From: a virus
Taxonomy: Duplodnaviria; Heunggongvirae; Uroviricota; Caudoviricetes
Length of the DNA stretch: 64,000 bases
Virus record (IMG/VR): IMGVR_UViG_2713896908_000007
Reading direction: 5' to 3' (one strand)
A program made the translations under genes and the position numbers. Positions 52,295 to 64,000 of this stretch are shown piece by piece (the stretch's first letter is position 1; every line of letters begins with the position of its first letter). The notes under the pieces were generated by a model. It saw only the letters and a program-made list of their open reading frames with translations. It searched no databases and was not told the origin of the DNA.

Positions 52295-53857
52295 ATGAAA
52301 ATGACAAGTATTCAACAACGTGCAGAGCTTCATCGTCAAATCTGGCAAATTGCTAACGATGTCAGGGGTTCGGTCGATGGATGGGATTTTAAGCAATACG
52401 TTCTGGGCGCACTTTTCTACCGTTTTATCAGCGAAAATTTTTCCAGTTATATGGAAAATGGTGATGACAGCATCTGTTATGCGGCACTTGATGACGGCAT
52501 TATTACTGATGACATTAAAGACGATGCCATCAGAACCAAAGGCTACTTCATCTACCCCAGTCAGCTTTTCTGCAACGTAGCGGCGAAAGCAAATACCAAT
52601 GACAGACTGAATGCAGATTTAAATAGTATCTTCGTTGCTATCGAAAGCTCTGCTTACGGTTACCCTTCAGAAGCTGACATCAAAGGTTTGTTTGCTGATT
52701 TTGATACAACCAGTAACCGCCTGGGTAACACCGTTAAGGATAAAAATGCCCGCCTGGCTGCGGTTCTGAAAGGGGTCGAAGGGTTAAACCTTGGTGACTT
52801 CAATGAACATCAGATTGACCTGTTCGGTGATGCCTATGAGTTCCTGATTTCTAACTATGCGGCAAATGCCGGTAAGTCAGGCGGTGAGTTCTTTACACCG
52901 CAGCACGTCTCCAAGCTGATTGCACAACTGGCTATGCACGGGCAGACCCACGTTAACAAAATCTACGACCCGGCCGCGGGTTCCGGTTCGCTGTTGTTGC
53001 AGGCTAAAAAGCAGTTTGATAACCATATCATTGAAGAAGGCTTTTTCGGACAGGAAATCAACCATACGACCTATAACCTGGCACGTATGAACATGTTTTT
53101 GCACAACATCAACTACGACAAGTTTGATATCAAGCTGGGCAATACGCTGACTGAACCGCACTTCAGAGATGAAAAACCGTTTGATGCCATCGTCTCTAAC
53201 CCGCCGTATTCGGTGAAATGGATTGGCAGCGATGACCCGACGCTGATTAACGATGAACGTTTTGCCCCGGCTGGCGTTCTGGCCCCCAAATCCAAAGCTG
53301 ACTTTGCGTTTGTACTACATGCGCTGAACTATCTTTCGGCCAAAGGTCGCGCCGCGATTGTCTGCTTCCCGGGTATTTTTTACCGTGGCGGCGCGGAGCA
53401 GAAAATCCGTCAGTATCTGGTTGACAATAACTATGTCGAAACCGTGATTTCACTGGCACCGAACCTGTTCTTTGGCACCACCATTGCCGTAAATATTCTG
53501 GTGCTGTCTAAACATAAAACGGATACCAAAGTTCAGTTTATTGACGCCAGCGAACTGTTCAAAAAAGAGACTAACAACAACATCCTGACCGATGCCCATA
53601 TCGAAAAAATTATGCAGGTATTTTCCAGCAAGGAAGATGTTGCTCATCTGGCGAAATCTGTCACGTTTGAGACCGTTGTCGCGAATGACTATAACCTGTC
53701 GGTAAGCAGCTATGTGGAAGCGAAAGATAACCGCGAAATTATCGATATCGGTGAGCTGAATGCTGAGCTGAAAACCACGGTCAGCAAAATCGACCAGTTG
53801 CGCAAAGATATTGATGCGATTGTGGCTGAAATTGAAGGCTGCGAGGTGCAGAAATGA
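52295..53857 (+). CDS. hsdM: type I restriction-modification methyltransferase subunit HsdM
   Basis: 520 aa; SAM motif [11 protein letters not shown] and catalytic NPPY (SNPPYSVKW). Confidence 0.95.
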
Positions 53858-55074
53858 GCGAGATGAGTTATCTGGAAAAATTGCTGGATGGGGTTGAGGT
53901 TGAGTGGTTGCCATTGGGGGAAGTCTCAGCCTTAAGAAGAGGCAGAGTTATGTCAAAGGGATATTTAACTGAAAATTTTGGCCCATATCCTGTCTATAGC
54001 TCTCAAACTGCAAATAATGGGAAAATAGGTTCTATCAATACCTTCGATTTTGATGGCGAATATATAAGCTGGACAACAGATGGCGCAAATGCAGGCACTG
54101 TGTTCTATCGAACAGGTAAATTTTCAATAACTAATGTTTGCGGCCTGATTACATTAAAAAGTAAATACCCATTAATCTACAAATTTCTGTTTTACTGGCT
54201 AACAATAGAAGCCAAAAAACATGTTTACTCAGGAATGGGAAACCCCAAGTTAATGAGTCATCAGGTTGAAAATATACCTGTACCAATCCCCTGCCCGGAT
54301 AATCCGGAAAAATCCCTTGCCATCCAGTCTGAAATCGTTCGGATTCTGGATAAATTTACTGAGCTTACAGCTGAGCTTACAGCTGAGCTTACAGCTGAGC
54401 TTACCATGCGTAAAAAACAGTACAACTACTATCTTGACCAGTCGCTAAGTTTTAAAGAGGGTGAGGTCGAGTTGAAAACGTTGGGAGAGATGGGGACACT
54501 TATAAGAGGCAAACGCTTTGTGAAATCCGACATAATTCCCAAGGGAGTACCGTGTATTCACTACGGTGAAATGTATACCCATTACCGCATCTGGGCGGAT
54601 AAAGCAAAATCGTATATCTCTGTTGAATTAGCGTCCAAGTTAAGAAAAGCCTCATGCGGAGATGTTGTTTTTGTCTCTGCGGGTGAAACAATTGCAGATA
54701 TTGGTCGTGGAACAGCCTGGTTAGGCGATGAAGATGTTGTTATTCATGACGCATGTTTTTTCTATAAAAGTTCATTGAACCCCAAGTATGTGGCCTACTT
54801 CTCAAGAACAAATTTCTTCCACGATCAGATTAAAAAATCGATCTCTTCGGGGAAAATTTCTGCCATCAATGCCAAAGGCTTTGAAAAAGTGATTATTCCA
54901 GTTCCTTCACCAGAAGAACAAGCACGCATCGTTGCTTTCTTGGACAAATTCGACACATTGACAAGCTCCATCACCGAAGGCTTACCCCGTGAAATAGAAC
55001 TACGCCAGAAGCAGTACGAGTACTATCGTGATTTACTGTTCAGTTTCCCAAAACCTGAAGCTGTCAGTAATTAA
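53854..55074 (+). CDS. hsdS: type I restriction-modification specificity subunit HsdS (type IC-like with TAEL repeats)
   Basis: 406 aa; two target-recognition halves separated by a central region with three TAEL repeats; ATGA-coupled to hsdM. Confidence 0.92.
54361..54405 (+). repeat. 12-bp tandem repeat (gagcttacagct x3 plus partial) encoding TAEL repeats in hsdS
   Basis: Direct reading; repeat number of this element sets target spacer length in EcoR124-type type IC systems. Confidence 0.85.
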
Positions 55075-55195
55075 TTGACCATTGCTACCGACCGGGCCAC
55101 CTTAACACCCGGTCAGTATATAGACTATTTTTTACACGCTGGAAGTCACCATTAACGCCCTTCCGGCCCTTGCCAGACGGCACAAAGGATACGCT

Positions 55196-58100
55196 ATGAC
55201 TCATCAAACACACACCATTGCTGAATCCAATAACTTTATCGTTCTTGATAAATACATCAAAGCTGAGCAAACAGGCGACAGCTATCAGAGCGAATCGGAC
55301 CTGGAACGTGAACTGATTCAGGACCTGCAAAATCAGGGCTATGAATTTATATCCGTAAAATCACAGTCAGCGATGCTGGCCAACGTTCGGGAACAGCTTC
55401 AGAGCCTCAATGGTGTGATGTTTAATGACAGAGAGTGGCGGCGTTTCACGGAGCAGTATCTGGACAACCCGAGCGATGGCATTCTGGATAAGACCCGTAA
55501 AATCCATATCGACTATATTTGCGACTTTATTTTTGATGACGAGCGACTTGAGAACATCTATTTGATAGATAAAAAGAATCTCATGCGCAATAAGGTGCAG
55601 ATTATCCAGCAGTTTGAACAGACGGGTTCTCATGCTAACCGTTATGACGTCACGATCCTGGTTAATGGTTTACCGCTGGTGCAAATCGAACTAAAAAAAC
55701 GCGGGGTGGCGATTCGTGAGGCTTTCAACCAGATACATCGTTACAGTAAAGAGAGTTTTAACAGCGAAAATTCCCTGTTTAAGTATCTGCAACTGTTTGT
55801 CATTTCTAACGGCACCGATACCCGTTACTTTGCCAACACCACAAAGCGCGATAAAAACAGTTTTGACTTCACAATGAACTGGGCGAAATCAGACAACACG
55901 CTGATTAAAGACCTCAAAGACTTTACCGCTACCTTTTTCCAGAAACATACTCTGCTGAATGTTCTGGTGAACTACAGCGTTTTTGACAGTAGTCAGACGC
56001 TACTGGTGATGCGACCGTACCAGATTGCAGCTACCGAACGAATTTTATGGAAAATCAACAGTTCCTATAAAGCGAAAAACTGGTCCACTCCCGAAAGTGG
56101 TGGCTTTATCTGGCACACCACCGGTTCCGGTAAAACACTGACCAGCTTTAAAGCCGCGCGTCTGGCAACAGAACTGGACTTTATTGATAAAGTCTTCTTC
56201 GTGGTCGACAGAAAAGACCTCGATTACCAGACGATGAAGGAATATCAGCGTTTTTCGCCAGACAGCGTCAACGGCTCGGAAAATACCGCAGGACTTAAAC
56301 GAAATCTGGATAAGGACGATAACAAAATTATCGTCACCACTATTCAGAAACTCAATAACCTGATGAAAGCAGAAAGCGACCTGCCTGTATACAATCAGCA
56401 AGTGGTGTTTATATTTGATGAATGTCACCGCAGCCAGTTTGGAGAAGCACAGAAAAACCTGAAGAAGAAATTCAAACGCTATTATCAGTTTGGTTTTACC
56501 GGCACACCTATTTTCCCGGAAAACGCCTTAGGCTCAGAAACAACCGCCAGCGTATTTGGCCGTGAATTGCATTCATATGTTATTACCGATGCGATTCGTG
56601 ACGAAAAAGTGCTCAAATTCAAGGTGGACTACAACGATGTGCGGCCACAGTTTAAGTCTTTAGAGACAGAAACTGACGAGAAAAAACTGAGTGCGGCTGA
56701 AAATCAGCAGGCGTTTCTTCATCCCATGCGTATTCAGGAAATCACGCAATATATCCTGAACAACTTCCGCCAGAAAACCCACCGTACTTTCCCTGGTTCC
56801 AAAGGTTTTAATGCCATGCTGGCAGTAAGCAGCGTGGATGCTGCAAAAGCCTATTATGCGACGTTTAAACGGTTACAAGAGGAAGCCGCTAATAAATCTG
56901 CAACTTATAAACCGCTGCGTGTTGCGACAATCTTCTCCTTTGCCGCTAATGAAGAACAAAATGCCATTGGTGAAATTTCCGATGAAACTTTTGATACCAG
57001 CGCAATGGACAGCAGTGCTAAAGAGTTTCTTGACGCTGCAATTCGTGAGTATAACAGCTATTTTAAAACTAACTTCAGCACCGACGGTAACGGTTTTCAG
57101 AACTACTATCGTGATTTAGCCCAACGGGTTAAAAATCAGGATATCGATCTGTTAATTGTCGTTGGGATGTTTTTAACCGGCTTCGACGCTCCAACATTGA
57201 ACACGCTATTCGTCGATAAAAACTTGCGTTTTCACGGCCTGATGCAGGCATTTTCCCGCACCAACCGTATTTATGATGCAACTAAAACCTTCGGTAATAT
57301 CGTCACTTTCCGCGATCTGGAACGCTCAACCATCGATGCCATAACGCTGTTTGGTGACAAAAACACCAAAAATGTAGTGTTAGAAAAGAGTTATGCAGAG
57401 TATATGGAAGGCTTTACTGATGCTGCTACTGGTGAAGCTAAGCGCGGCTTTATGGCAGTAGTTGCAGAACTGGAACAACGGTTCCCTGACCCTGCCAGTA
57501 TTGAAAGTGAAAAAGAGAAGAAAGACTTCGTTAAACTGTTTGGTGAATACCTGCGTACCGAGAACATCCTGCAAAACTATGATGAATTTGCCACGCTGAA
57601 AGCCCTGCAACAAATCGATCTTAGCGATCCTGTTGCAGTAGAAAAATTCAAAGCAGAACATTATGTGGATGATGAAAAGCTCGCTGAATTGCAAACAATT
57701 CGTCTCCCTGCTGATCGCAAGATTCAGGATTATCGTTCTGCCTATAACGATATTCGCGACTGGCAGCGCCGTGAGAAAGAAGCTGAGAAAAAAGAGAAAT
57801 CAACCATTGACTGGGATGACGTAGTTTTTGAGGTCGATTTGCTGAAGTCTCAGGAAATAAACCTGGATTATATCCTTGGACTGATTTTCGAACACAACAG
57901 ACAAAATAAAGGCAAGGGCGAAATGATCGAAGAGGTCAAACGCTTAATTCGTTCAAGCCTAGGGAACCGTGCTAAAGAGGGCTTGGTGGTCGATTTTATT
58001 CAGCAAACGAACCTGGATGATTTACCAGATAAAGCCAGTATCATTGAGGCATTCTTTACGTTTGCTCAACGCGAACAGCAACGTGAAGCAGAAGCATTGA

Positions 58101-58312
58101 TAAAAGAAGAAAATCTCAATGAAGAAGCAGCAAAACGCTATATTCGCACGTCTTTAAAACGCGAATACGCCACCGAAAATGGCACAGAATTAAACGAAAC
58201 ATTACCAAAACTTAGTCCGTTGAATCCGCAATATAAAACGAAAAAACAGGCAGTTTTCCAGAAAATCGTCTCGTTTATTGAGAAGTTTAAAGGCGTAGGC
58301 GGAAAAATATAG
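55196..58312 (+). CDS. hsdR: type I restriction endonuclease subunit HsdR
   Basis: 1038 aa; Walker [17 protein letters not shown]-like FDECHRSQ, C-terminal helicase motifs. Confidence 0.95.
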
Positions 58313-58356: not shown

Positions 58357-58391
58357 AGCTCGTGGGGTTCCAAATGGCTAATATACTCCCA

Positions 58392-58478
58392 TTACCCATG
58401 CGCGACGATGCCGCCAAAAGTGATAGAGAACAGCCAGAAATAGATCGCGGCCATAATGATTTTGAATGCCGTGTTCAT
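58392..58478 (-). CDS. candidate 28-aa hydrophobic peptide (MNTAFKIIMAAIYFWLFSITFGGIVAHG)
   Basis: ATG preceded by AGGAG; antisense between hsdR and the following terminator; below the ORF-track size cut-off. Confidence 0.3.
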   Translation of the reverse strand: MNTAFKIIMAAIYFWLFSITFGGIVAHG

Positions 58479-58506
58479 ATCCTCAGCTCCTGTGATTGAT
58501 TGGATA

Positions 58507-58537
58507 CATGCCGCGCCTTGCGGCATGTTTTTATTTT
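58507..58537 (+). terminator. rho-independent terminator downstream of the hsd operon
   Basis: catgccgc-gcctt-gcggcatg followed by tttttatttt. Confidence 0.6.
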
Positions 58538-58559
58538 CACCATCTCTGTTTAAAAATCA

Positions 58560-58576
58560 AGTTTTATTAGAGCAAT
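58560..58576 (-). promoter_or_regulatory. C1 operator (agTTTTATTAGAGCAAT)
   Basis: 15/17 to consensus; overlaps the stop of the adjacent phosphatase-like gene and faces the hsd insertion. Confidence 0.5.
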
Positions 58577-59082
58577 TATTGTTGATAAAGAAGCGCATTT
58601 TCATACTCCCTGACCATTAACGTAAGTACGCCGTGACTCCTGAAAACACGCGCCACTTCAATCTTATCTTCCAGCGCGAACGCAATTTTACTTAGACCAA
58701 TTTTCTTCAGGAGATCAATCTTTGCTGGACCGTCATTTCTGTCATCGGTGGCAGGACGCATAGATAGCAAAGGCTCAGCCCCGTTTGTTACGTGCTTCCG
58801 CAGCCAGGCTCGTGTTTTATCCCTTGCGATCTCACAGCGCCCGGTTACAAACCAGACCGTGTAAACGTTAAATAACTGGCGCACCATATCAATAACTGGA
58901 GTTATGGGAGTATCGGTGTCACAGGCGAGATTAAACTCGTTCCAGTCCTTTGTTAATGCACCTTTACCTGGTGGCGGAAGCAAATGCAGTCTGTCTTCAG
59001 TTGCCTCTGATATTGTTCCATCAATATCAACTATGACGATATACGGACGTTCATGGTGTGCGTGTTGGTTGAAAATACTCAA
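58576..59082 (-). CDS. HAD-superfamily phosphatase-like protein
   Basis: 168-aa ORF; HAD motif I IVIVDIDGT. Confidence 0.55.
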   Translation of the reverse strand: MSIFNQHAHHERPYIVIVDIDGTISEATEDRLHLLPPPGKGALTKDWNEFNLACDTDTPITPVIDMVRQLFNVYTVWFVTGRCEIARDKTRAWLRKHVTNGAEPLLSMRPATDDRNDGPAKIDLLKKIGLSKIAFALEDKIEVARVFRSHGVLTLMVREYENALLYQQ

Positions 59083-59154
59083 ATGCCCTCCTCATTGGAC
59101 GAAAAAAATGCTGGTGGGCGCACTCCACCAGCATTAAAAGTGACACTGTAACTA

Positions 59155-60417
59155 TCAGCGAACGTAAATAGTGCCGCCGTTCTCTTTTTCCCATGCATCG
59201 CTACGTGCATAGCAAACATCGAGAAGTCTTCTTGCCGCTGTTTCCTCTAAACCCAATTCGACAACCAACTGCTCATGACGGCGGGTAACCACATCAAACA
59301 GGGTATGCAACCCTTTAGTTGCCAGATCATCAATGAATTCCGGTTCGAACGGCAGCTCTGCATCTGCCAACATAACCTCTTGCGCCCACTCAACTCGACG
59401 GACCAGTTCCGGGCGGCGGCTTTCCATCTCTTTACAGATCAATTCATGGAAGAACTCTACCCAACCCTCCGGCTGGAACTCGCGGAAAATGGCCAACGGC
59501 TGGAAGTTTGGCATCAACCATTCGTTGATCCGGATATCAATGGCATAGCCCATGTCGCAGCAGAACTGATAAGCAAAGTCCAGCTTAGAAACGATATAAG
59601 GACGCTCGTTATTGAACTCTTTAGGCGATGAGATCCCATAAGCCAGGAGGCGCGGGAAGAAGGAGATTTGCCCTAACGTCGGATGAAGTTTGCTTGCAGG
59701 GAAACGGCGCTCAGTAATGCCATACATTTCCTTCTTGAGCGTCGCAAATTTGGCATTCTCATTAACCAGCGCGGTAACCTCTGCTTTTTTATTAGCAAAT
59801 GCCACGCGCGCTTCGCTTGCATCTTTAATAGTTTTTTTGAGCTGTTGGTTAAGGTCGGCGACCTGCTTACGCAGTTCCTGTCGCTCGCTTTTAGCTTTGT
59901 TATAGCGTTTCTCAAGGTTAAAAGGATCAAGTTTCATGATCTCTTTATATTGAGATTTTAGCGTTGAAATCTGTGAGTTCCGCAGTTCAACCATCGCGGT
60001 CATTTCATTGAGTTTTGTTTCCAGCTCAATGCTTATACGTTCGGCATTATCAGCACGCTGGTTGGCGTCATGCGTCGCATCGTCGATCGCGTCCTGTTGC
60101 TGGCGTTTCAAATGTTCAATTTGCAGCTGAAGCTCTTCAATTTCTTTACCCTTCAGACCGAGATCCAACTGCATATTTTCAGCTGCATCTACCAGGTCGT
60201 TATGGCTATCAGCTTCTGCGTTATAAACATCAATAAGCTGTGCATGGAGCATCTCTGCTGACTGAACCGCATTATCAAAAAAACGAGCTGTGAGGTCATC
60301 ACAACTAACGCGGCGTTGCGCGGCCCGGATGTTCTGGATAATGGCCGGGATACCGGCATTCAGGACATCAGGGATAGATACATTTTCGATTGATTGGTTT
60401 TGTGCTGAAGTGCTCAT
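59155..60417 (-). CDS. hypothetical protein with N-terminal coiled-coil
   Basis: 420-aa ORF; heptad-rich residues about 90-230; no catalytic motif recognised. Confidence 0.55.
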   Translation of the reverse strand: MSTSAQNQSIENVSIPDVLNAGIPAIIQNIRAAQRRVSCDDLTARFFDNAVQSAEMLHAQLIDVYNAEADSHNDLVDAAENMQLDLGLKGKEIEELQLQIEHLKRQQQDAIDDATHDANQRADNAERISIELETKLNEMTAMVELRNSQISTLKSQYKEIMKLDPFNLEKRYNKAKSERQELRKQVADLNQQLKKTIKDASEARVAFANKKAEVTALVNENAKFATLKKEMYGITERRFPASKLHPTLGQISFFPRLLAYGISSPKEFNNERPYIVSKLDFAYQFCCDMGYAIDIRINEWLMPNFQPLAIFREFQPEGWVEFFHELICKEMESRRPELVRRVEWAQEVMLADAELPFEPEFIDDLATKGLHTLFDVVTRRHEQLVVELGLEETAARRLLDVCYARSDAWEKENGGTIYVR

Positions 60418-60651
60418 TTCAAAGTTCCGTATTAGCTTGTTCTTCGGTCATTTTTCCTAAGTATGAAGGTGGAAGGACTACGCAATTTGTATCCAGCCCC
60501 TCACCTATGGCAGCCTGTAAAATTCTGGCTAAGGTGAGCCTCTTGTTGCGATACCTGGTGATGACATGCCTGATACCGCCGGTCGGCGTAACAAAGGCGA
60601 TCAGCCAGTAGTGATATTTCCGTCGGAATGGCCACATAGTGTACCTTGCAG

Positions 60652-60717
60652 ATTGCTCTAATAAAAAACGTGATGAGTGTACATCACGTTTTAAAAATAT
60701 GGAATTATTAGAGCAAT
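60652..60717. promoter_or_regulatory. bipartite C1 operator (two inverted sites flanking a palindrome)
   Basis: ATTGCTCTAATAAAAAA (60652-60668) and reverse ggaATTATTAGAGCAAT (60701-60717) flank the palindrome aacgtgatg-agtgta-catcacgtt; upstream of the 420-aa gene. Confidence 0.55.
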
Positions 60718-60718
60718 A

Positions 60719-61420
60719 TTATTCTGATTCTCGCTCAAAAAATGAGCTGATAAGGGGAAGCCAATCCTCTGACACTTCGCGAGGTCGCGGTTTGCCGTGG
60801 AAAAAGATTATTCGGCAGTCTTTTGGTAATGCCCCATTCCCCCTGGAGTAACGCGCGCTCGCATATTTTGAACCAGGTTCCACAACATCGGCCTTGTAAC
60901 TTACAAACCATCCTGGATACAGATCCTGAAATGCTGGTGTATCATCGCCCATAACCTTCCGTAAGAACCCCTGATCACCCCAGCACTCAGTAGTGACACA
61001 ACGAGAAATCCAACCTTCCGGATCTTGCCAGAATGAACTCCAGATATGCGCTTTAACACTATTTGGTATCCACAGGGCACCGCTGCCACGATATTGTGGA
61101 TGGTAAAAATCCCTAAGCATGGTGAAGCTGGTTGGTGGATGCTCTAGGATTGGGCGTATATCACCGGCAATAACCGTGTCCAAATCCAGATAGAACAGAT
61201 CATCGGTTATATCCGGTCGGAACAACTCGATTTTCGCCCACCAGCCACGGCACTTTTGCCACTGGTTGATCAATGGGACAACTTTGACGCCAGGTACATG
61301 TAAACGCTTCAGGTCTGTCAGGCAAATAATTTCATAGCCTTTTGGCAGTTGATTAACCAGCCACTGCACATCGGAAGCGTTATAGTCACCACCAGAGCGA
61401 AAAACTAAAGCAATCTTCAT
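60719..61420 (-). CDS. hypothetical protein, nucleotide-sugar transferase-like (DxD motif)
   Basis: 233-aa ORF; …[11 protein letters not shown]… DxD-type motif; fold assignment tentative. Confidence 0.45.
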
Positions 61421-62109
61421 GCTGCACCATCACCTTTCACTTTCATCAATGTCAGGTTTCCGCAAAATACGGCACCAGTGTCGATATACTGCTGATTCCA
61501 GAATGTCTTCGGGCTTTTCACCGGAGTGTGACCAAAGATAAAACGATCTGCGCCCGAAATTTCGCCACCAATATCATCCATCGAATCACTGATACGCTCG
61601 CGCGCCCAGACAACGTTGAAAAGCGGCACCTCCTTACCGAATTGGTATTCATTATCCGGATAGTCGGCATGGGCTATAACGATAGTTTCTTGCCCGGTGT
61701 TCAACTCAATGATATAGGGCAGTCGTCTTACCAACTCCACCAGCGCCCTGGCTAATATTTCCTGATCAGCGTCCAGCATGAAGAACCATTGACCGCCATT
61801 CATTAGCCAGTTATTCACGTTGCCATCAGGACTTAACGCATCGAGCATCAACAGCTCATGGTTCCCCACTACTGCCCTGAACCAGGGCATCTGCAATAGT
61901 TCCAGACATTCGACATTTTCAGTACCGCGATCGATAAGGTCGCCGACCGATATCAGTAAATCCTGCGCCGGGTCAAAATCCACACGATGGAGTTCGGACA
62001 TCAGTCTGGTGTAGCAACCATGCAGATCACCAACAACCCAGACATTCCTGTATTTGGTACCGTCGATACGGTGATAAATTGTGGGTGCCATCATGTATTC
62101 TTCAGCCAT
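61417..62109 (-). CDS. Ser/Thr protein phosphatase (PPP/lambda-phosphatase family)
   Basis: 230-aa ORF; metallophosphatase motifs GDLHG, GDLIDRG, GNHE. Confidence 0.85.
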
Positions 62110-62717
62110 TCTTTAAGAGTCATCTGCGGAATACCTCCCATTTTCCCGCATGAAACAACGTCAATCCGTTCACGCGCAGACTGGAATAACAAAGGCAGGT
62201 GACTTAGATTTTTTGGCGTGCCGCCGGAGTGAACGCGTGGTTCTTGTGTAGCGTCAACGCCCACCAGGGCGACATGTTTGAATCCGATATGGAAAGCCAG
62301 GTTCAGAGCACCATATGCACTATTGCCGCTGGCAATTTCATTCTCATCTTCGCAAAGGCCGAAATGTGCGGACCAGCGCCACGCCCACCACTCGGGAGAA
62401 TTCGTATTTTTTGGCTCCGTGCCGCGTTCAGCCACACGACGGAAGCACAGAACGCCATCTCTGACTTCACGTTCTTTAACATCGGGTAGTGCCATGCAAT
62501 AACAAACACCACGGCGACGGCGGCCACGACCAACGCGCCGCATATTGTCTGGGGATGGATCAAGGGTGAAAAAATAAGAAGCGCGGTTAAGCCAGTCGAT
62601 GGCCCCATTGACCGCTATAATCGGCACTCCGCGCGGCGCAACAAAGTTTGCGGCGCTTGGGCCACTGCCGACGATAATAACGCGATCACTGCCTCTAAAT
62701 TTATTCTTGGGAAACAT
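62091..62717 (-). CDS. GSGPS-motif Rossmann-like protein (paralog 1)
   Basis: 208-aa ORF; …[13 protein letters not shown]…[10 protein letters not shown]…; paralogous to the next ORF. Confidence 0.5.
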
Positions 62718-63277
62718 TGAATTGCACTGCTCCTACTTGCATTCAAAATATGTAAATCTGCGTGTTTTTTGCGGGTATCCAGGAACTGCTGTTGCCATTT
62801 TGAAATAGACACCTGCGTTGGATTCCGTAGGGCTTGAGGGTGCGCACCATGCCAATGGAGGCCGTTTTGCAGAGAACAGTCATAACCGACTAATACAACT
62901 ACTTCAGCCCCTGACTCTGCCGCCAGACTGATAGCCTGCGCGCCGCTATTTACCCCTTCAGCTGGTCCACAGTATCGCCTGTACTCCAACGAAAATGATT
63001 TCGCCGCCGCCAGGTTGGCTGTCACTTTGCGGAATCTCCCTTCCGGTATGATGGATCCGTATTGCTTCCACCATGACAAATCACCTGCGTATAAGGCATA
63101 AATGTCATCGAACATCTGCCAGGAATTGTTGACCGCGATGATTGAACAGCCAGTTTTTTCTATAGCAGCACAGTCCTCACGAGTGAGTGACGGACCGCTA
63201 CCGATACAAAAAACCGTCTTAGTCGCCCGGGGCGGTATGTTCATTCTCAGCTGCAAATTCGGCCTCCAGGCGAGCAT
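62615..63277 (-). CDS. GSGPS-motif Rossmann-like protein (paralog 2)
   Basis: 220-aa ORF (possible internal start at 63244); …VFCIGSGPSLTRED…IIAVNNSWQM…; overlaps paralog 1 by 103 nt in another frame. Confidence 0.5.
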   Translation of the reverse strand: MLAWRPNLQLRMNIPPRATKTVFCIGSGPSLTREDCAAIEKTGCSIIAVNNSWQMFDDIYALYAGDLSWWKQYGSIIPEGRFRKVTANLAAAKSFSLEYRRYCGPAEGVNSGAQAISLAAESGAEVVVLVGYDCSLQNGLHWHGAHPQALRNPTQVSISKWQQQFLDTRKKHADLHILNASRSSAIQCFPRINLEAVIALLSSAVAQAPQTLLRRAECRL

Positions 63278-63440
63278 TCATTTCAGCGATTACCGGGTCC
63301 ACTACAGCATCTGTTTCCTGTTCATTACGCGGCATGACCGATGCCAGCGATTCATAATTAACCTTGGATGACACGATTATTCTCCCGATGTTAAGGTGCG
63401 CTACCTCAAAGGACGGCAATGCACTAATTAATTTATTATT

Positions 63441-64000
63441 TTAAGCAGCGGACAACCACTTGTCGCCGTTCAATACATGCTCAATAGCCTCGCCTTTTTT
63501 AAGGCTTATGTATTCCAGGATGGCGGTTATCGCTTGTTCTGCACCATACGCAAGAACGACGTGGTAACCTTCCTCTTTAAGTCTGCGCATCCAAGCGATC
63601 TGCTCTTTCGTCGGGGCTTTACCATTTGGTTCTTTAAGCTCAATTCGCATGCCGTGATAAATGCCACATGCTTTATCGAGACTCATGTCCGGATAGCCTT
63701 TTTTCTGCCCTTCAGCCTTCATTTTCCCGGCGGTTGCTTTTGAACGCTTCCCTCCGTTAGGCGTTGCATGCAACAGCTCATAGATTTCAGGGTGCTTGCG
63801 TTCGAAGTAATCAAAAATGAAAACCTGTTCGAAGTGCTCGCAATTTCCGTCGCGCAGATCTGGGTTCTTTGCCAGTGCTGCAAGTGCCTTCGCATGTGGC
63901 GAAACTTCTTTTACCGGCCCAAGCGATAAGAATGGATCCTTTTGGTTTTTTGGTCTGGACCACCCCTTATTTCTACGCTCACTAAAAGCCTGAAACTCTT
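63441..64000 (-). CDS. VRR-NUC-like nuclease domain protein (5-prime end outside window)
   Basis: Reading frame open to the window edge; …HATPNGGKRS…GQKKGYPDMSL…RIELKEPNGKAPTKEQIAWMRRLKEEGYHVVL… resembles a PD-(D/E)xK VRR-NUC core. Confidence 0.6.
   Translation of the reverse strand, partial: EFQAFSERRNKGWSRPKNQKDPFLSLGPVKEVSPHAKALAALAKNPDLRDGNCEHFEQVFIFDYFERKHPEIYELLHATPNGGKRSKATAGKMKAEGQKKGYPDMSLDKACGIYHGMRIELKEPNGKAPTKEQIAWMRRLKEEGYHVVLAYGAEQAITAILEYISLKKGEAIEHVLNGDKWLSAA

What the first reader, a model, noticed from the sequence alone, without database searches (positions are those of the whole stretch)
58576..64000. C1-operator-controlled enzyme cluster at the right edge: two phosphatases, a GT-like protein, two GSGPS paralogs and a VRR-NUC nuclease
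Seven co-directional genes are preceded by the bipartite operator: a HAD-like phosphatase, a coiled-coil protein, a DxD nucleotide-sugar-transferase-like protein, a PPP Ser/Thr phosphatase, two paralogous Rossmann-like proteins with a GSGPS motif (DUF115/MptE-like?) overlapping by 103 nt in different frames, and a VRR-NUC-type nuclease. Some probably correspond to P1 backbone genes (P1 is reported to encode a protein phosphatase). The combination of sugar/nucleotide-handling enzymes with a nuclease under repressor control could be a nucleic-acid or protein modification pathway. The overlap may mark an ancestral fused gene or a frameshift.
Basis: partly seen in the sequence, partly recalled or inferred. 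Interest (0 to 1): 0.45.

Follow-up and report, generated by a model that had tools for sequence, protein, structure and literature searches.

The report
Phage P1 sugar-transferase gene cassette
This is the already-sequenced pmgM-to-pap stretch of a phage P1-type genome, but three of its "function unknown" genes (pmgO, pmgP, pmgQ) prove to be a sugar-chain-building cassette shared by many unrelated phages, which probably uses the bacterial sugar Kdo and has an unknown target.

Summary
Window 58388-64000 is 97.6% identical to phage P1 (pap, pmgS, pmgR, pmgQ, ppp, pmgP, pmgO, pmgN, pmgM). All genes lie on the minus strand, and pmgM is cut by the window end.

- HAD phosphatase, PPP phosphatase and a DxD glycosyltransferase.
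- Two GSGPS paralogs that overlap by 103 nt.
- A VRR-NUC nuclease.

The cluster is not one operon behind one operator. There are nine genes in at least three units, with Op83 before pmgN-pmgQ, the bivalent Op86a/b before pmgR-pmgS, and Op88 downstream of pap.

Only pmgO-pmgP-pmgQ form a conserved functional unit. They are adjacent in P1-like, lambdoid, sipho-, podo- and jumbo phages. Natural single-chain fusions exist (O+P, P+Q, Q+P, Q+P+methyltransferase). PmgP folds like the Maf and CstII CMP-sugar transferases, and PmgQ folds like GT8/GT77 retaining transferases.

Four P1-like relatives carry kdsB (CMP-Kdo synthetase) nearby, which points to CMP-Kdo as donor. The acceptor is unknown; I favour virion proteins over LPS.

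The pmgO/pmgP overlap is conserved, with pmgP in the -1 frame and its ATG inside a pmgO Cys codon. A programmed frameshift is not supported.

ppp, pap, pmgM and pmgS are lineage-specific neighbours. Published knockouts of these genes show no plaque defect.

The parts
63441..64000 (-). pmgM (VRR-NUC-type nuclease), 5' end cut by the window edge (7 codons missing). It belongs to the upstream Op82 unit and is not part of the sugar cassette.
   Evidence: Translation is intact to the window edge. Pfam VRR_NUC scores 22.0 bits against a cut-off of 23.8, and phrog_5702 (Holliday junction resolvase) gives 3.5e-26. A PD...ELK motif is readable in the sequence.
63418..63434 (+). C1 operator Op83 (Oppp), in front of pmgN-pmgO-pmgP-ppp-pmgQ
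   Evidence: AATGCACTAATTAATTT, 3 mismatches to the consensus. Same position as the annotated P1 operator.
63219..63374 (-). pmgN, a small ORF (51 aa) of unknown function that overlaps the annotated pmgO start by 59 nt
   Evidence: P1 annotation; phrog_2350. Essential by CRISPRi but not by deletion.
62615..63277 (-). pmgO, a Maf/GT42/MptE-like putative CMP-sugar transferase and paralog of PmgP. The C-terminal ~18 residues are a non-conserved tail.
   Evidence: phrog_4603 1.2e-73. Family alignment with invariant GPS, N50, SG, GYDCS and H141/H143/H146. hhalign against the PmgP family gives probability 98.1%.
62615..62717 (-). 103-nt pmgO/pmgP overlap. pmgP is in the -1 frame and its ATG (62717-62715) sits in the pmgO Gln187-Cys188 codons (caA TGt). 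An A_AAT_TTA heptamer lies at 62702-62696.
   Evidence: Sequence. The same architecture occurs in 17 of 18 distinct junctions, while a heptamer occurs in only 7 of 18 and is not conserved in position. The downstream RNA fold has z = -0.82.
62091..62717 (-). pmgP, a Maf/GT42/MptE-like putative CMP-ulosonic-acid (probably CMP-Kdo) transferase and the most conserved member of the cassette
61417..62109 (-). ppp, a lambda-type Ser/Thr protein phosphatase. It is a sporadic insertion between pmgP and pmgQ.
   Evidence: Pfam Metallophos 57.7 bits. NCBIfam PRK11439 gives 9e-82. Present in only some P1-like relatives. Non-essential.
60719..61420 (-). pmgQ, a GT-A retaining glycosyltransferase of GT8/GT77 type with a DLD motif and a C-terminal HGxPRP motif
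   Evidence: Model with pLDDT 94.3. Foldseek top hits are AgtA 6mw5, glycogenin, GlyE and LgtC. The profile against PDB gives AgtA at 1.6e-06. Invariant D79, D81, H208, G209, P211 and P213.
60652..60717 (.). Bivalent C1 operator Op86b (60652-60668, +) and Op86a (60701-60717, -), which controls pmgR-pmgS
   Evidence: Identical to the annotated P1 operators OpmgRb and OpmgRa.
60419..60637 (-). [quoted passage not shown]
   Evidence: P1 homology. Deletion phenotype reported in PMC9024508.
59155..60417 (-). pmgS, a 420-aa protein with a central coiled coil; non-essential, function unknown
   Evidence: phrog_1660. Only weak coiled-coil matches. No PDB sequence match.
59107..59135 (-). Terminator-like hairpin (11-bp stem followed by TTTTT) between pmgS and pap
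   Evidence: Pattern scan only.
58576..59082 (-). pap, a HAD-superfamily phosphatase of the PNKP-phosphatase type with a DIDGT motif
   Evidence: Pfam HAD_PNKP 46.7 bits. phrog_415 gives 2e-56. In relative L090 its start overlaps the stop of kdsB.
58560..58576 (-). C1 operator Op88 (OpmgT). It lies downstream of pap and in P1 controls pmgT, which is replaced here by the hsd locus.
   Evidence: ATTGCTCTAATAAAACT; P1 annotation.

Best explanation
The region is the pmgM-pap segment of a P1-type phage-plasmid. It holds nine minus-strand genes in at least three C1-repressor-controlled units, all silent in the lysogen and switched on in lytic growth. It is a mosaic, not one pathway.

The one coherent functional module is pmgO-pmgP-pmgQ, a cytoplasmic glycan-building cassette:
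- PmgO and PmgP are two diverged paralogs with the Maf/CstII (GT42)/MptE-like nucleotide-binding fold. I infer that they transfer a CMP-activated ulosonic acid, most likely Kdo.
- Kdo is favoured because CMP-Kdo is the only such donor in E. coli K-12 (established knowledge) and because related phages bring their own kdsB.
- PmgQ is a GT8/GT77-like retaining GT-A enzyme, which would add a hexose from a UDP-sugar.
- The three probably work as a complex. Their genes overlap or abut, and in other genomes they are fused into one chain.

The acceptor is not shown. I favour a phage virion (head) protein made late in the cytoplasm, for two reasons. In several siphophages the cassette sits inside the capsid and connector gene block. 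Cytoplasmic enzymes expressed only during lytic growth can do little to LPS that is already in the outer membrane.

ppp, pap, pmgM, pmgN, pmgR and pmgS are neighbours with other roles. pmgR acts in head completion.

Shown: identity with P1, operators, folds, motifs, paralogy, synteny, fusions and kdsB linkage.
Inferred: transferase activity, Kdo as the sugar, complex formation and the acceptor.
For: Identity and regulation:
- P1 identity and annotation.
- Operators.

Enzyme families:
- A PmgO+PmgP superfamily profile has CstII as its top PDB sequence hit, with the GNGPSL and ITSG...GID motifs aligned.
- The PmgQ model (pLDDT 94.3) matches GT77 and GT8 retaining transferases.

Gene linkage:
- pmgP and pmgQ are adjacent, usually with pmgO, in about 25 diverse loci. 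These include lambdoid phiNP-type prophages, Ochrobactrum and other siphophages, a podo-like phage, EP_H11 and jumbo phages.
- Fusion proteins exist: PmgO+PmgP (P0053), PmgP+PmgQ (P0223, P0292), PmgQ+PmgP (P0305), PmgQ+PmgP+methyltransferase (P0270) and methyltransferase+PmgP (P0309).
- Extra partners elsewhere are further glycosyltransferases and SAM or TylF-type methyltransferases.

Donor:
- kdsB (TIGR00466, 270 bits against a 155 cut-off) lies in the adjacent pmgR-pmgS operon of four P1-like relatives.
- kdsB occurs in only 6 of 50,697 phage records.
- E. coli WaaZ, a Kdo-adding core enzyme, belongs to the same MptE-like superfamily.

Acceptor and phenotype:
- The cassette lies between portal or capsid genes and head-tail connector genes in L008/L094, L096, L098, L105 and D3.
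- Deletions of pmgO, pmgP, pmgQ, ppp, pap and pmgS give no plaque or anti-restriction defect, which fits a dispensable decoration.
Against: - There is no biochemical evidence for any activity.
- PmgO and PmgP score below the Pfam gathering threshold for MptE-like (21-23 bits against 34.6).
- Direct similarity to WaaZ is not significant (hhalign probability 8-14%).
- kdsB is absent from P1 and from this window, and it lies in the neighbouring operon rather than inside the cassette.
- P1 virion glycosylation has never been reported. The P1 virion proteome paper did not look for it.
- In P1 and lambdoid phages the cassette is not inside the head gene block.
- The closest E. coli analogues of both enzyme types (WaaZ, WaaJ/WaaO) are LPS-core enzymes, which favours the rival acceptor.
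Confidence: 0.6

Rival explanations
1. The same three-enzyme cassette acts on the host envelope rather than on the virion. It would add Kdo and a hexose to nascent LPS inner or outer core during lytic growth. That would alter or truncate the core, which carries the P1 receptor glucose, and so limit superinfection or loss of progeny on cell debris.
For: - E. coli WaaZ is MptE-like (E 6.9e-07), and it sits beside the GT8 core enzymes WaaJ and WaaO in the waa operon.
- PmgQ aligns to WaaJ and WaaO over the DxD and HxxGxxKPW motifs.
- kdsB linkage fits an LPS sugar.
- All hosts of the cassette are Gram-negative.
- From my own knowledge: WaaZ overexpression truncates the outer core (Frirdich et al. 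2003).
Against: - In many phages the genes are tightly packed in late structural operons, and in P1 they are repressed in the lysogen. This is therefore not lysogenic conversion, and late cytoplasmic enzymes cannot change LPS already in the outer membrane.
- Similarity to WaaZ, WaaJ and WaaO holds only at superfamily level.
- The top structural neighbours of both enzymes act on proteins or protein-linked glycans (Maf, AgtA, glycogenin, GlyE).
Confidence: 0.2
2. PmgO and PmgP are not glycosyltransferases. Instead they are MptE/thiamine-pyrophosphokinase-like kinases that (pyro)phosphorylate a small molecule or a sugar, and only PmgQ transfers a sugar.
For: - The only Pfam family hit is named after MptE.
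Against: - The only PDB sequence-profile hits are CstII sialyltransferases.
- Partners and fusions are glycosyltransferases and sugar-type methyltransferases.
- kdsB supplies a CMP-sugar, not a kinase substrate.
Confidence: 0.1
3. One reading: all seven enzymes form one repressor-controlled pathway that modifies nucleic acid (phage DNA or RNA), with the nuclease and the phosphatases taking part.
For: - Pap resembles the phosphatase domain of polynucleotide kinase-phosphatases.
- Ppp has weak matches to Pnkp-type phosphoesterases.
- PmgM is a VRR-NUC nuclease.
- All are under C1 control.
Against: - The genes fall into at least three transcription units.
- ppp, pap and pmgM do not co-occur with pmgO/P/Q outside the P1 lineage.
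- There are no base-modifying enzymes.
- Single deletions leave plating on restricting hosts unchanged.
- From my own knowledge: P1 DNA is not known to carry sugar modifications.
Confidence: 0.04
4. The database annotation is right: these are morphogenetic (structural or assembly) proteins of the P1 head or sheath (pmg = putative morphogenetic; hdm and sht in P7).
For: - P1 and P7 annotations.
- pmgR is needed for head completion.
- The cassette lies in head gene blocks of other phages.
Against: - pmgO, pmgP, pmgQ, pmgS, ppp and pap deletions plate normally.
- None of them is mentioned among the virion proteins of the proteome paper.
- PmgP and PmgQ have confident enzyme folds.
Confidence: 0.05
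5. The pmgO/pmgP overlap is a programmed -1 ribosomal frameshift site that yields a PmgO-PmgP fusion protein.
For: - pmgP is in the -1 frame in 17 of 18 junctions.
- A canonical X_XXY_YYZ heptamer (A_AAT_TTA) lies in the pmgO frame at 62702-62696, and heptamers occur in 7 of 18 junctions.
- A natural in-frame fusion exists.
Against: - The heptamers differ in sequence and position. They are absent from 11 of 18 junctions, including the closest 70%-identical relatives.
- There is no significant downstream RNA structure (z = -0.82).
- pmgP has its own conserved ATG and an upstream GGAG.
- A slip at this site would delete the conserved PmgO C-terminal LEAVIA helix.
Confidence: 0.08

Closest known systems
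Phage P1 pmgM-pap region (NC_005856.1, 78850-84293) and its P7/SJ46/RCS47 equivalents
   Same: 97.6% nucleotide identity over 5.6 kb. Gene order, overlaps and all four C1 operators are the same.
   Different: About 2.4% substitutions. To the left of pap, the P1 genes pmgT-pmgV, upfM-O, hot, lxr and humD are replaced by a type IC hsdMSR locus, as in vB_EcoM-673R5.
Maf flagellin glycosyltransferases (MAF_flag10/DUF115; PDB 5mu5) and GT42 sialyltransferases CstII and Cst-I
   Different: PmgO and PmgP are bare ~200-aa catalytic cores without Maf's acceptor-binding domains. They score below the Pfam threshold. They occur as an overlapping paralog pair, and activity is untested.
E. coli WaaZ (LPS core enzyme linked to addition of a third Kdo)
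   Same: Same MptE-like superfamily. A Kdo donor is plausible for both.
   Different: No significant direct similarity. WaaZ is 283 aa and chromosomal, and it acts on LPS.
GT8/GT77 retaining GT-A glycosyltransferases (AgtA, glycogenin, GlyE, LgtC, WaaJ/WaaO)
   Same: The PmgQ fold, the DxD motif and the C-terminal HxxGxx(K/R)P motif.
   Different: No Pfam GT8 hit for the P1 protein. TM-scores are about 0.57. PmgQ is shorter (233 aa). Donor and acceptor are unknown.
Mycobacteriophage virion glycosylation cassettes (Freeman et al. 2023, from my own knowledge; alluded to in PMC11256854)
   Same: Non-essential phage glycosyltransferase genes, with or without methyltransferase genes, near structural genes. 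They are thought to decorate capsid or tail proteins.
   Different: The enzyme families, host group (actinobacteria against proteobacteria) and sugars all differ. Here glycosylation of virions is only inferred.
Prophage O-antigen conversion modules (gtrABC, D3 iap/wzy/oac; from my own knowledge)
   Same: Phage-borne sugar-modifying genes.
   Different: Those modules are expressed in the lysogen, act in the membrane or periplasm, and contain membrane proteins. pmgO/P/Q are soluble, repressed in the lysogen and lie in late or lytic operons.

Membership tests
Phage P1 backbone region pmgM-pap | High nucleotide identity and identical gene order with P1 | tested here: met
   97.56% identity over 5,615 nt with 3 small gaps. 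All nine genes are intact.
Phage P1 backbone region pmgM-pap | C1 operators Op83, Op86a/b and Op88 at the annotated positions | tested here: met
   Four sites with 2-3 mismatches to ATTGCTCTAATAAATTT. They are identical or near-identical to the P1 sites. C1 binding itself was not tested.
MptE-like / DUF115 / Maf / GT42 superfamily (PmgO, PmgP) | Pfam PF01973 score above the gathering threshold | tested here: not met
   PmgP scores 21.0 bits and PmgO 23.0 bits against 34.6. Some family members pass, such as P0260 at 44.1 bits and P0053 at 44.6 bits.
MptE-like / DUF115 / Maf / GT42 superfamily (PmgO, PmgP) | Characteristic fold | tested here: met
MptE-like / DUF115 / Maf / GT42 superfamily (PmgO, PmgP) | N-terminal GxGPS nucleotide loop and central SG...G-x-D motif | tested here: met
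   These residues are invariant in both families and align to CstII GNGPSL and ITSG...GID.
MptE-like / DUF115 / Maf / GT42 superfamily (PmgO, PmgP) | CMP-sugar-dependent transferase activity and a catalytic His | not testable with these tools
   Conserved His residues exist (PmgP H173; PmgO H141, H143, H146). Their equivalence to CstII His188 was not established.
GT8/GT77 retaining GT-A glycosyltransferases (PmgQ) | GT-A fold with a DxD metal/nucleotide-sugar motif | tested here: met
   Model pLDDT 94.3. Foldseek gives 5e-09 to AgtA and about 1e-07 to glycogenin and LgtC. D79 and D81 are invariant.
GT8/GT77 retaining GT-A glycosyltransferases (PmgQ) | Pfam Glyco_transf_8 above threshold | tested here: not met
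   The window protein has no Pfam hit. A homolog gives 13 bits against 24.3. The profile against PDB reaches AgtA at E 1.6e-06.
PPP-family Ser/Thr phosphatase (Ppp) | Metallophos domain and the GDxHG / GDxxDRG / GNHE motifs | tested here: met
   57.7 bits against 21.5. GDLHG, GDLIDRG and GNHE are readable in the translation. NCBIfam PrpA-type scores 274 bits, below the equivalog cut-off of 326.
HAD phosphatase, PNKP-phosphatase type (Pap) | HAD_PNKP domain above threshold and the DxDxT nucleophile motif | tested here: met
   46.7 bits against 27.6. D-I-D-G-T is at residues 19-23. The substrate is unknown.
VRR-NUC nuclease (PmgM) | Pfam VRR_NUC above threshold | tested here: inconclusive
   22.0 bits against 23.8. 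A PD...E-L-K motif is present, and phrog_5702 gives 3.5e-26.
Programmed -1 ribosomal frameshift site | Conserved slippery heptamer plus a downstream stimulatory structure | tested here: not met
   A heptamer is present here but in only 7 of 18 junctions, and at different positions. The downstream fold has z = -0.82.

The most novel reading that the evidence does not exclude
Phage P1, and hundreds of other phages of Gram-negative bacteria that carry the pmgO-pmgP-pmgQ cassette, decorate their own virion proteins with a short Kdo-containing glycan. The glycan would be built in the cytoplasm by a PmgO/PmgP/PmgQ complex from host or phage-made CMP-Kdo. This would be the first virion glycosylation system in a classical coliphage, and the first protein-linked use of Kdo by a virus of bacteria.
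Probability: 0.3. Interest if true: 0.75.

Novelty: new variant of a known kind. Interest (0 to 1): 0.5.

Why it matters
The sequence itself is ordinary. It is a textbook phage whose genes were named twenty years ago.

What is not in the databases or in the papers I could search is the link between three of these "putative morphogenetic" genes:
- They form a mobile, fusion-linked glycan-synthesis cassette found from P1 to jumbo phages.
- They have a specific, testable donor (CMP-Kdo).

If the acceptor is a virion protein, surface glycosylation of phage particles would extend from mycobacteriophages to model coliphages. That has consequences for immune recognition, for phage therapy and for receptor interactions. 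If the acceptor is LPS, this would be a new lytic-phase way of remodelling the host surface.

Either way the question is directly testable, because clean delta-pmgO, delta-pmgP and delta-pmgQ P1 mutants already exist (PMC9024508).

Tried and rejected
Searches that led nowhere:
- Single-sequence and family-profile searches of PmgO and PmgP against PDB sequences gave nothing usable. Only the merged superfamily profile reached CstII, and weakly.
- BLASTP of PmgO against PmgP was marginal (E 0.004). My first hhalign run was an artefact of the fused P0053 in the alignment and was repeated without it.
- Direct comparison with E. coli WaaZ, WaaJ and WaaO showed superfamily-level similarity only.
- I could not model the fused P0053, because MAFFT aligned the PmgO homologs onto the PmgP half. 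I modelled PmgP alone instead.
- The viral-contig scan with the PmgO alignment returned only near-identical P1-likes. The genome-contig scan failed with the alignment and gave two loci with P0038. The afdb50 fold library was unavailable.
- One family search failed on a coordinate error.
- PmgS has no PDB or informative family match.

Ideas tested and rejected:
- A programmed -1 frameshift is not supported.
- Pap as a KdsC-like Kdo-8-phosphate phosphatase remains speculation only. The kdsB-pap coupling is seen in L090, but in L117 kdsB is followed by ssb.

Literature:
- The Acinetobacter KdoT paper proved irrelevant, because KdoT is a GT-B enzyme.
- Searches for phage Maf/DUF115 or for phage kdsB in P1-like elements found nothing on this cassette.

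Full report
WHAT IS THERE

Window 58388-64000 aligns to phage P1 (NC_005856.1, 78869-84482, reverse complement) at 97.56% identity with three 1-nt gaps, all of them outside the coding sequences. All genes are on the minus strand:

| Gene | Window coordinates | Note |
|---|---|---|
| pmgM | 63441 to beyond the window end | 7 codons missing, otherwise intact |
| pmgN | 63219-63374 | |
| pmgO | 62615-63277 | |
| pmgP | 62091-62717 | |
| ppp | 61417-62109 | |
| pmgQ | 60719-61420 | |
| pmgR | 60419-60637 | |
| pmgS | 59155-60417 | |
| pap | 58576-59082 | |

To the left of 58388 the P1 homology stops. A type IC hsdM-hsdS-hsdR locus (52295-58312) occupies the place of P1 pmgT...humD. The P1 record itself notes this junction.

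The C1 operator consensus ATTGCTCTAATAAATTT has 12 matches in the window at up to 3 mismatches, against 0.26 expected by chance. Four of them lie in the region, at the positions of the annotated P1 operators:

| Operator | Coordinates | Strand |
|---|---|---|
| Op83 | 63418-63434 | + |
| Op86b | 60652-60668 | + |
| Op86a | 60701-60717 | - |
| Op88 | 58560-58576 | - |

CHECK OF THE OBSERVATION

- Pap is a HAD phosphatase of PNKP-phosphatase type (46.7 bits; DIDGT motif).
- Ppp is a PPP/Metallophos phosphatase.
- PmgO and PmgP are weak MptE-like/DUF115 matches with a GSGPS loop.
- PmgM is a marginal VRR-NUC match with a PD...ELK motif.
- PmgQ has a DLD motif.

The 103-nt overlap is exact.

The wrong points are the gene order, the gene count and the operator placement. 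The genes run right to left. There are nine genes, not seven. A terminator-like hairpin (59135-59107) separates pmgS from pap (pattern match only).

WHAT IS KNOWN EXPERIMENTALLY

- Single in-frame deletions of pmgN, pmgO, pmgP, pmgQ, pmgS, ppp and pap in P1 give no plaquing or anti-restriction defect.
- A CRISPRi screen agrees, except that it calls pmgN essential and misses pmgR (PMC10695390).
- The "putative morphogenetic" labels in P1, and the hdm (head morphogenesis) and sht (sheath) labels in P7, are therefore not supported for the enzymes.
- I found no paper in the held library that assigns a function to pmgO, pmgP or pmgQ.

THE CLUSTER IS A MOSAIC, WITH ONE REAL MODULE

- D6, a diverged P1 relative, keeps only ppp in this region.
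- HMMs built from the three families were run on about 33 diverse loci. They show pmgP next to pmgQ, usually preceded by pmgO, in many phage types:
  - P1-like elements.
  - The Citrobacter rodentium lambdoid prophage phiNP, between the lysis genes and terminase.
  - Ochrobactrum and other siphophages, between the portal or capsid genes and the head-tail connector genes.
  - A podovirus-like contig.
  - Coliphage EP_H11.
  - Jumbo phages such as XacN1.
- The slot between pmgP and pmgQ varies: empty, ppp (only in P1 and a subset of its relatives), a second GT-A enzyme (Nucleotid_trans), or a SAM-dependent methyltransferase.
- A related PmgO-only variant pairs with a ~280-aa protein and a methyltransferase. 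It occurs in Hafnia prophages and in phage D3, where it lies among the head-tail connector genes.
- A profile search of 1.84 billion representatives found 616 PmgP-family clusters. Among them are single-chain fusions:

| Protein | Domain order |
|---|---|
| P0053 | PmgO+PmgP |
| P0223, P0292 | PmgP+PmgQ |
| P0305 | PmgQ+PmgP |
| P0270 | PmgQ+PmgP+Methyltransf_23 |
| P0309 | Methyltransf_24+PmgP |

Conserved adjacency across unrelated phages, together with fusions in several orders, is strong evidence that the three proteins act in one pathway and probably as a complex. pmgM, pmgS, pmgR and pap accompany them only within the P1 lineage.

WHAT THE ENZYMES ARE

PmgQ:
- The model has pLDDT 94.3.
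- Its best solved neighbours are retaining GT-A transferases of GT77 and GT8: AgtA 5e-09, then glycogenin, GlyE, LgtC, WbbM and LARGE1.
- The family profile reaches AgtA by sequence at 1.6e-06.
- The DxD motif and a C-terminal HGxPRP motif, which aligns with the C-terminal GxxKPW segment of AgtA, glycogenin and WaaJ, are invariant.

PmgP:
- The model has pLDDT 94.4.
- Foldseek gives MptE and then CstII.

PmgO:
- It is a full-length distant homolog of PmgP (hhalign probability 98.1%, E 1e-13).
- A merged PmgO+PmgP profile has CstII as its top PDB sequence hit (E 0.023). The GNGPSL loop and the ITSG...LSGID segment of CstII align to the invariant motifs.

Both paralogs keep their own sets of invariant residues, so both look active. 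On fold alone, a CMP-sugar transferase and a pyrophosphokinase cannot be told apart. The partners decide it for me: further glycosyltransferases, TylF- and Methyltransf_23-type methyltransferases, and kdsB.

THE DONOR

Four P1-like relatives (L090, L117, L106, and L100, the last possibly degenerate) carry a cytidylyltransferase downstream of pmgS in the neighbouring operon. The L090 protein is a KdsB equivalog:
- TIGR00466 scores 270 bits against a cut-off of 155.
- It matches solved KdsB structures at 1e-72.

kdsB is rare in phages, at 6 of 50,697 records. CMP-Kdo is the only CMP-activated ulosonic acid in E. coli K-12 (established knowledge). The host enzyme linked to adding a third Kdo, WaaZ, also belongs to the MptE-like superfamily (E 6.9e-07), although it is not specifically similar to PmgO or PmgP.

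I therefore infer CMP-Kdo as the donor for PmgO and/or PmgP, and a UDP-hexose for PmgQ. P1 itself would rely on the host KdsB.

In L090 the pap start overlaps the kdsB stop, which prompted the idea that Pap is a KdsC-like phosphatase. In L117 kdsB is followed by ssb, so this stays speculation.

THE ACCEPTOR

The acceptor is the open point.

For a virion protein:
- The cassette is packed inside the head gene block of several unrelated siphophages, with gene junctions of a few nucleotides.
- It is expressed only in lytic growth, under C1 control in P1 and from late operons elsewhere.
- The closest solved relatives act on proteins or protein-linked glycans (Maf, AgtA, glycogenin, GlyE).
- Its loss is tolerated.

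For LPS:
- The nearest E. coli counterparts of both enzyme types are core-biosynthesis enzymes (WaaZ, WaaJ/WaaO).
- All hosts are Gram-negative.

Against LPS: soluble enzymes made only during the lytic cycle cannot alter LPS that is already exported.

My estimates are about 0.35-0.4 for virion proteins, 0.2 for LPS or another envelope glycan, and the remainder for something else.

THE OVERLAP

pmgP is in the -1 frame relative to pmgO in 17 of 18 distinct junctions, with overlaps of 4 to 109 nt. In the P1-like and lambdoid lineages the pmgP ATG is formed by the last base of one pmgO codon and the first two bases of the conserved Cys codon (xxA TGY).
- The overlap is therefore an old, conserved arrangement, not an error.
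- The last ~18 residues of P1 PmgO are a non-conserved tail.
- An A_AAT_TTA heptamer in the pmgO frame (62702-62696) would allow a -1 slip into pmgP.
- Such heptamers occur in only 7 of 18 junctions, at different places. They are missing in the closest 70%-identical relatives. The downstream RNA is no more stable than shuffled controls (z = -0.82).
- pmgP has its own conserved start and an upstream GGAG.

I reject programmed frameshifting as the explanation, though it is not excluded as a minor event.

VERDICT

The object is the known P1 pmgM-pap region.

A nucleic-acid target is unlikely.

The new content is a comparative-genomic and structural case that pmgO-pmgP-pmgQ is a widespread phage glycan-building cassette, probably using CMP-Kdo. 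All activities and the acceptor remain to be shown. The mutants needed to test this already exist.

Noticed in passing
window 52295-58312 (+), junction at 58388: A type IC restriction-modification locus replaces the P1 segment humD-lxr-hot-upfM/N/O-pmgV/U/T between phd/doc and pap. It comprises hsdM 52295-53857, hsdS 53854-55074 and hsdR 55196-58312 (with an EcoR124_C domain). P1 homology resumes right after the stop of a small ORF. The best full-length match is phage vB_EcoM-673R5.
   Followed up: partly
window 58392-58478 (-): An unannotated 28-aa hydrophobic ORF (MNTAFKIIMAAIYFWLFSITFGGIVAHG) has an AGGAG 8 nt upstream. It lies just downstream of operator Op88 and a hairpin (58506-58528). 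It is identical in P1, where it sits immediately before pmgT. It could be a small membrane peptide under C1 control.
   Followed up: partly
window 59107-59135 (-): A strong terminator-like hairpin (11-bp stem, 6 GC pairs, followed by TTTTT) lies in the 72-nt gap between pmgS and pap. pap may therefore be expressed by read-through or separately from pmgR-pmgS.
   Followed up: no
L090 10658-11425; L117 7186-7974; L106 7647-8402; L100 7757-8353: P1-like relatives that lack ppp carry a phage-borne kdsB (CMP-Kdo synthetase) downstream of pmgS. kdsB is otherwise found in only 6 of 50,697 phage records.
   Followed up: yes
L174 (Escherichia phage EP_H11, OP688485) 6001-6609: The deposited annotation has no gene where the pmgP homolog lies, apparently because it overlaps pmgO. 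In the Citrobacter locus L007 the gene caller also truncated pmgP to an internal GTG. In vB_EcoM-673R5 pmgP matched in two pieces, which may indicate a frameshift.
   Followed up: partly
L176 (phage D3, NC_002484.2) 4837-5555 and 6894-8289: The PmgO-like match in D3 spans two annotated ORFs (orf6.5 and orf7), which suggests a mis-split gene. Together with orf12 and the orf13 methyltransferase, it lies among the head-tail connector genes. This is the same trio as in a Hafnia prophage (L091).
   Followed up: partly
window 63219-63277 (-): The annotated pmgO start overlaps pmgN by 59 nt. Homologs of PmgO begin about 11-17 residues further in, so the true pmgO start may be Met12 (63244).
   Followed up: no
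L089 10098-10646: In one group of P1-like relatives a 3'-5' exoribonuclease (Rv2179c-like) gene sits between pmgS and pap, at the place where other relatives have kdsB.
   Followed up: no
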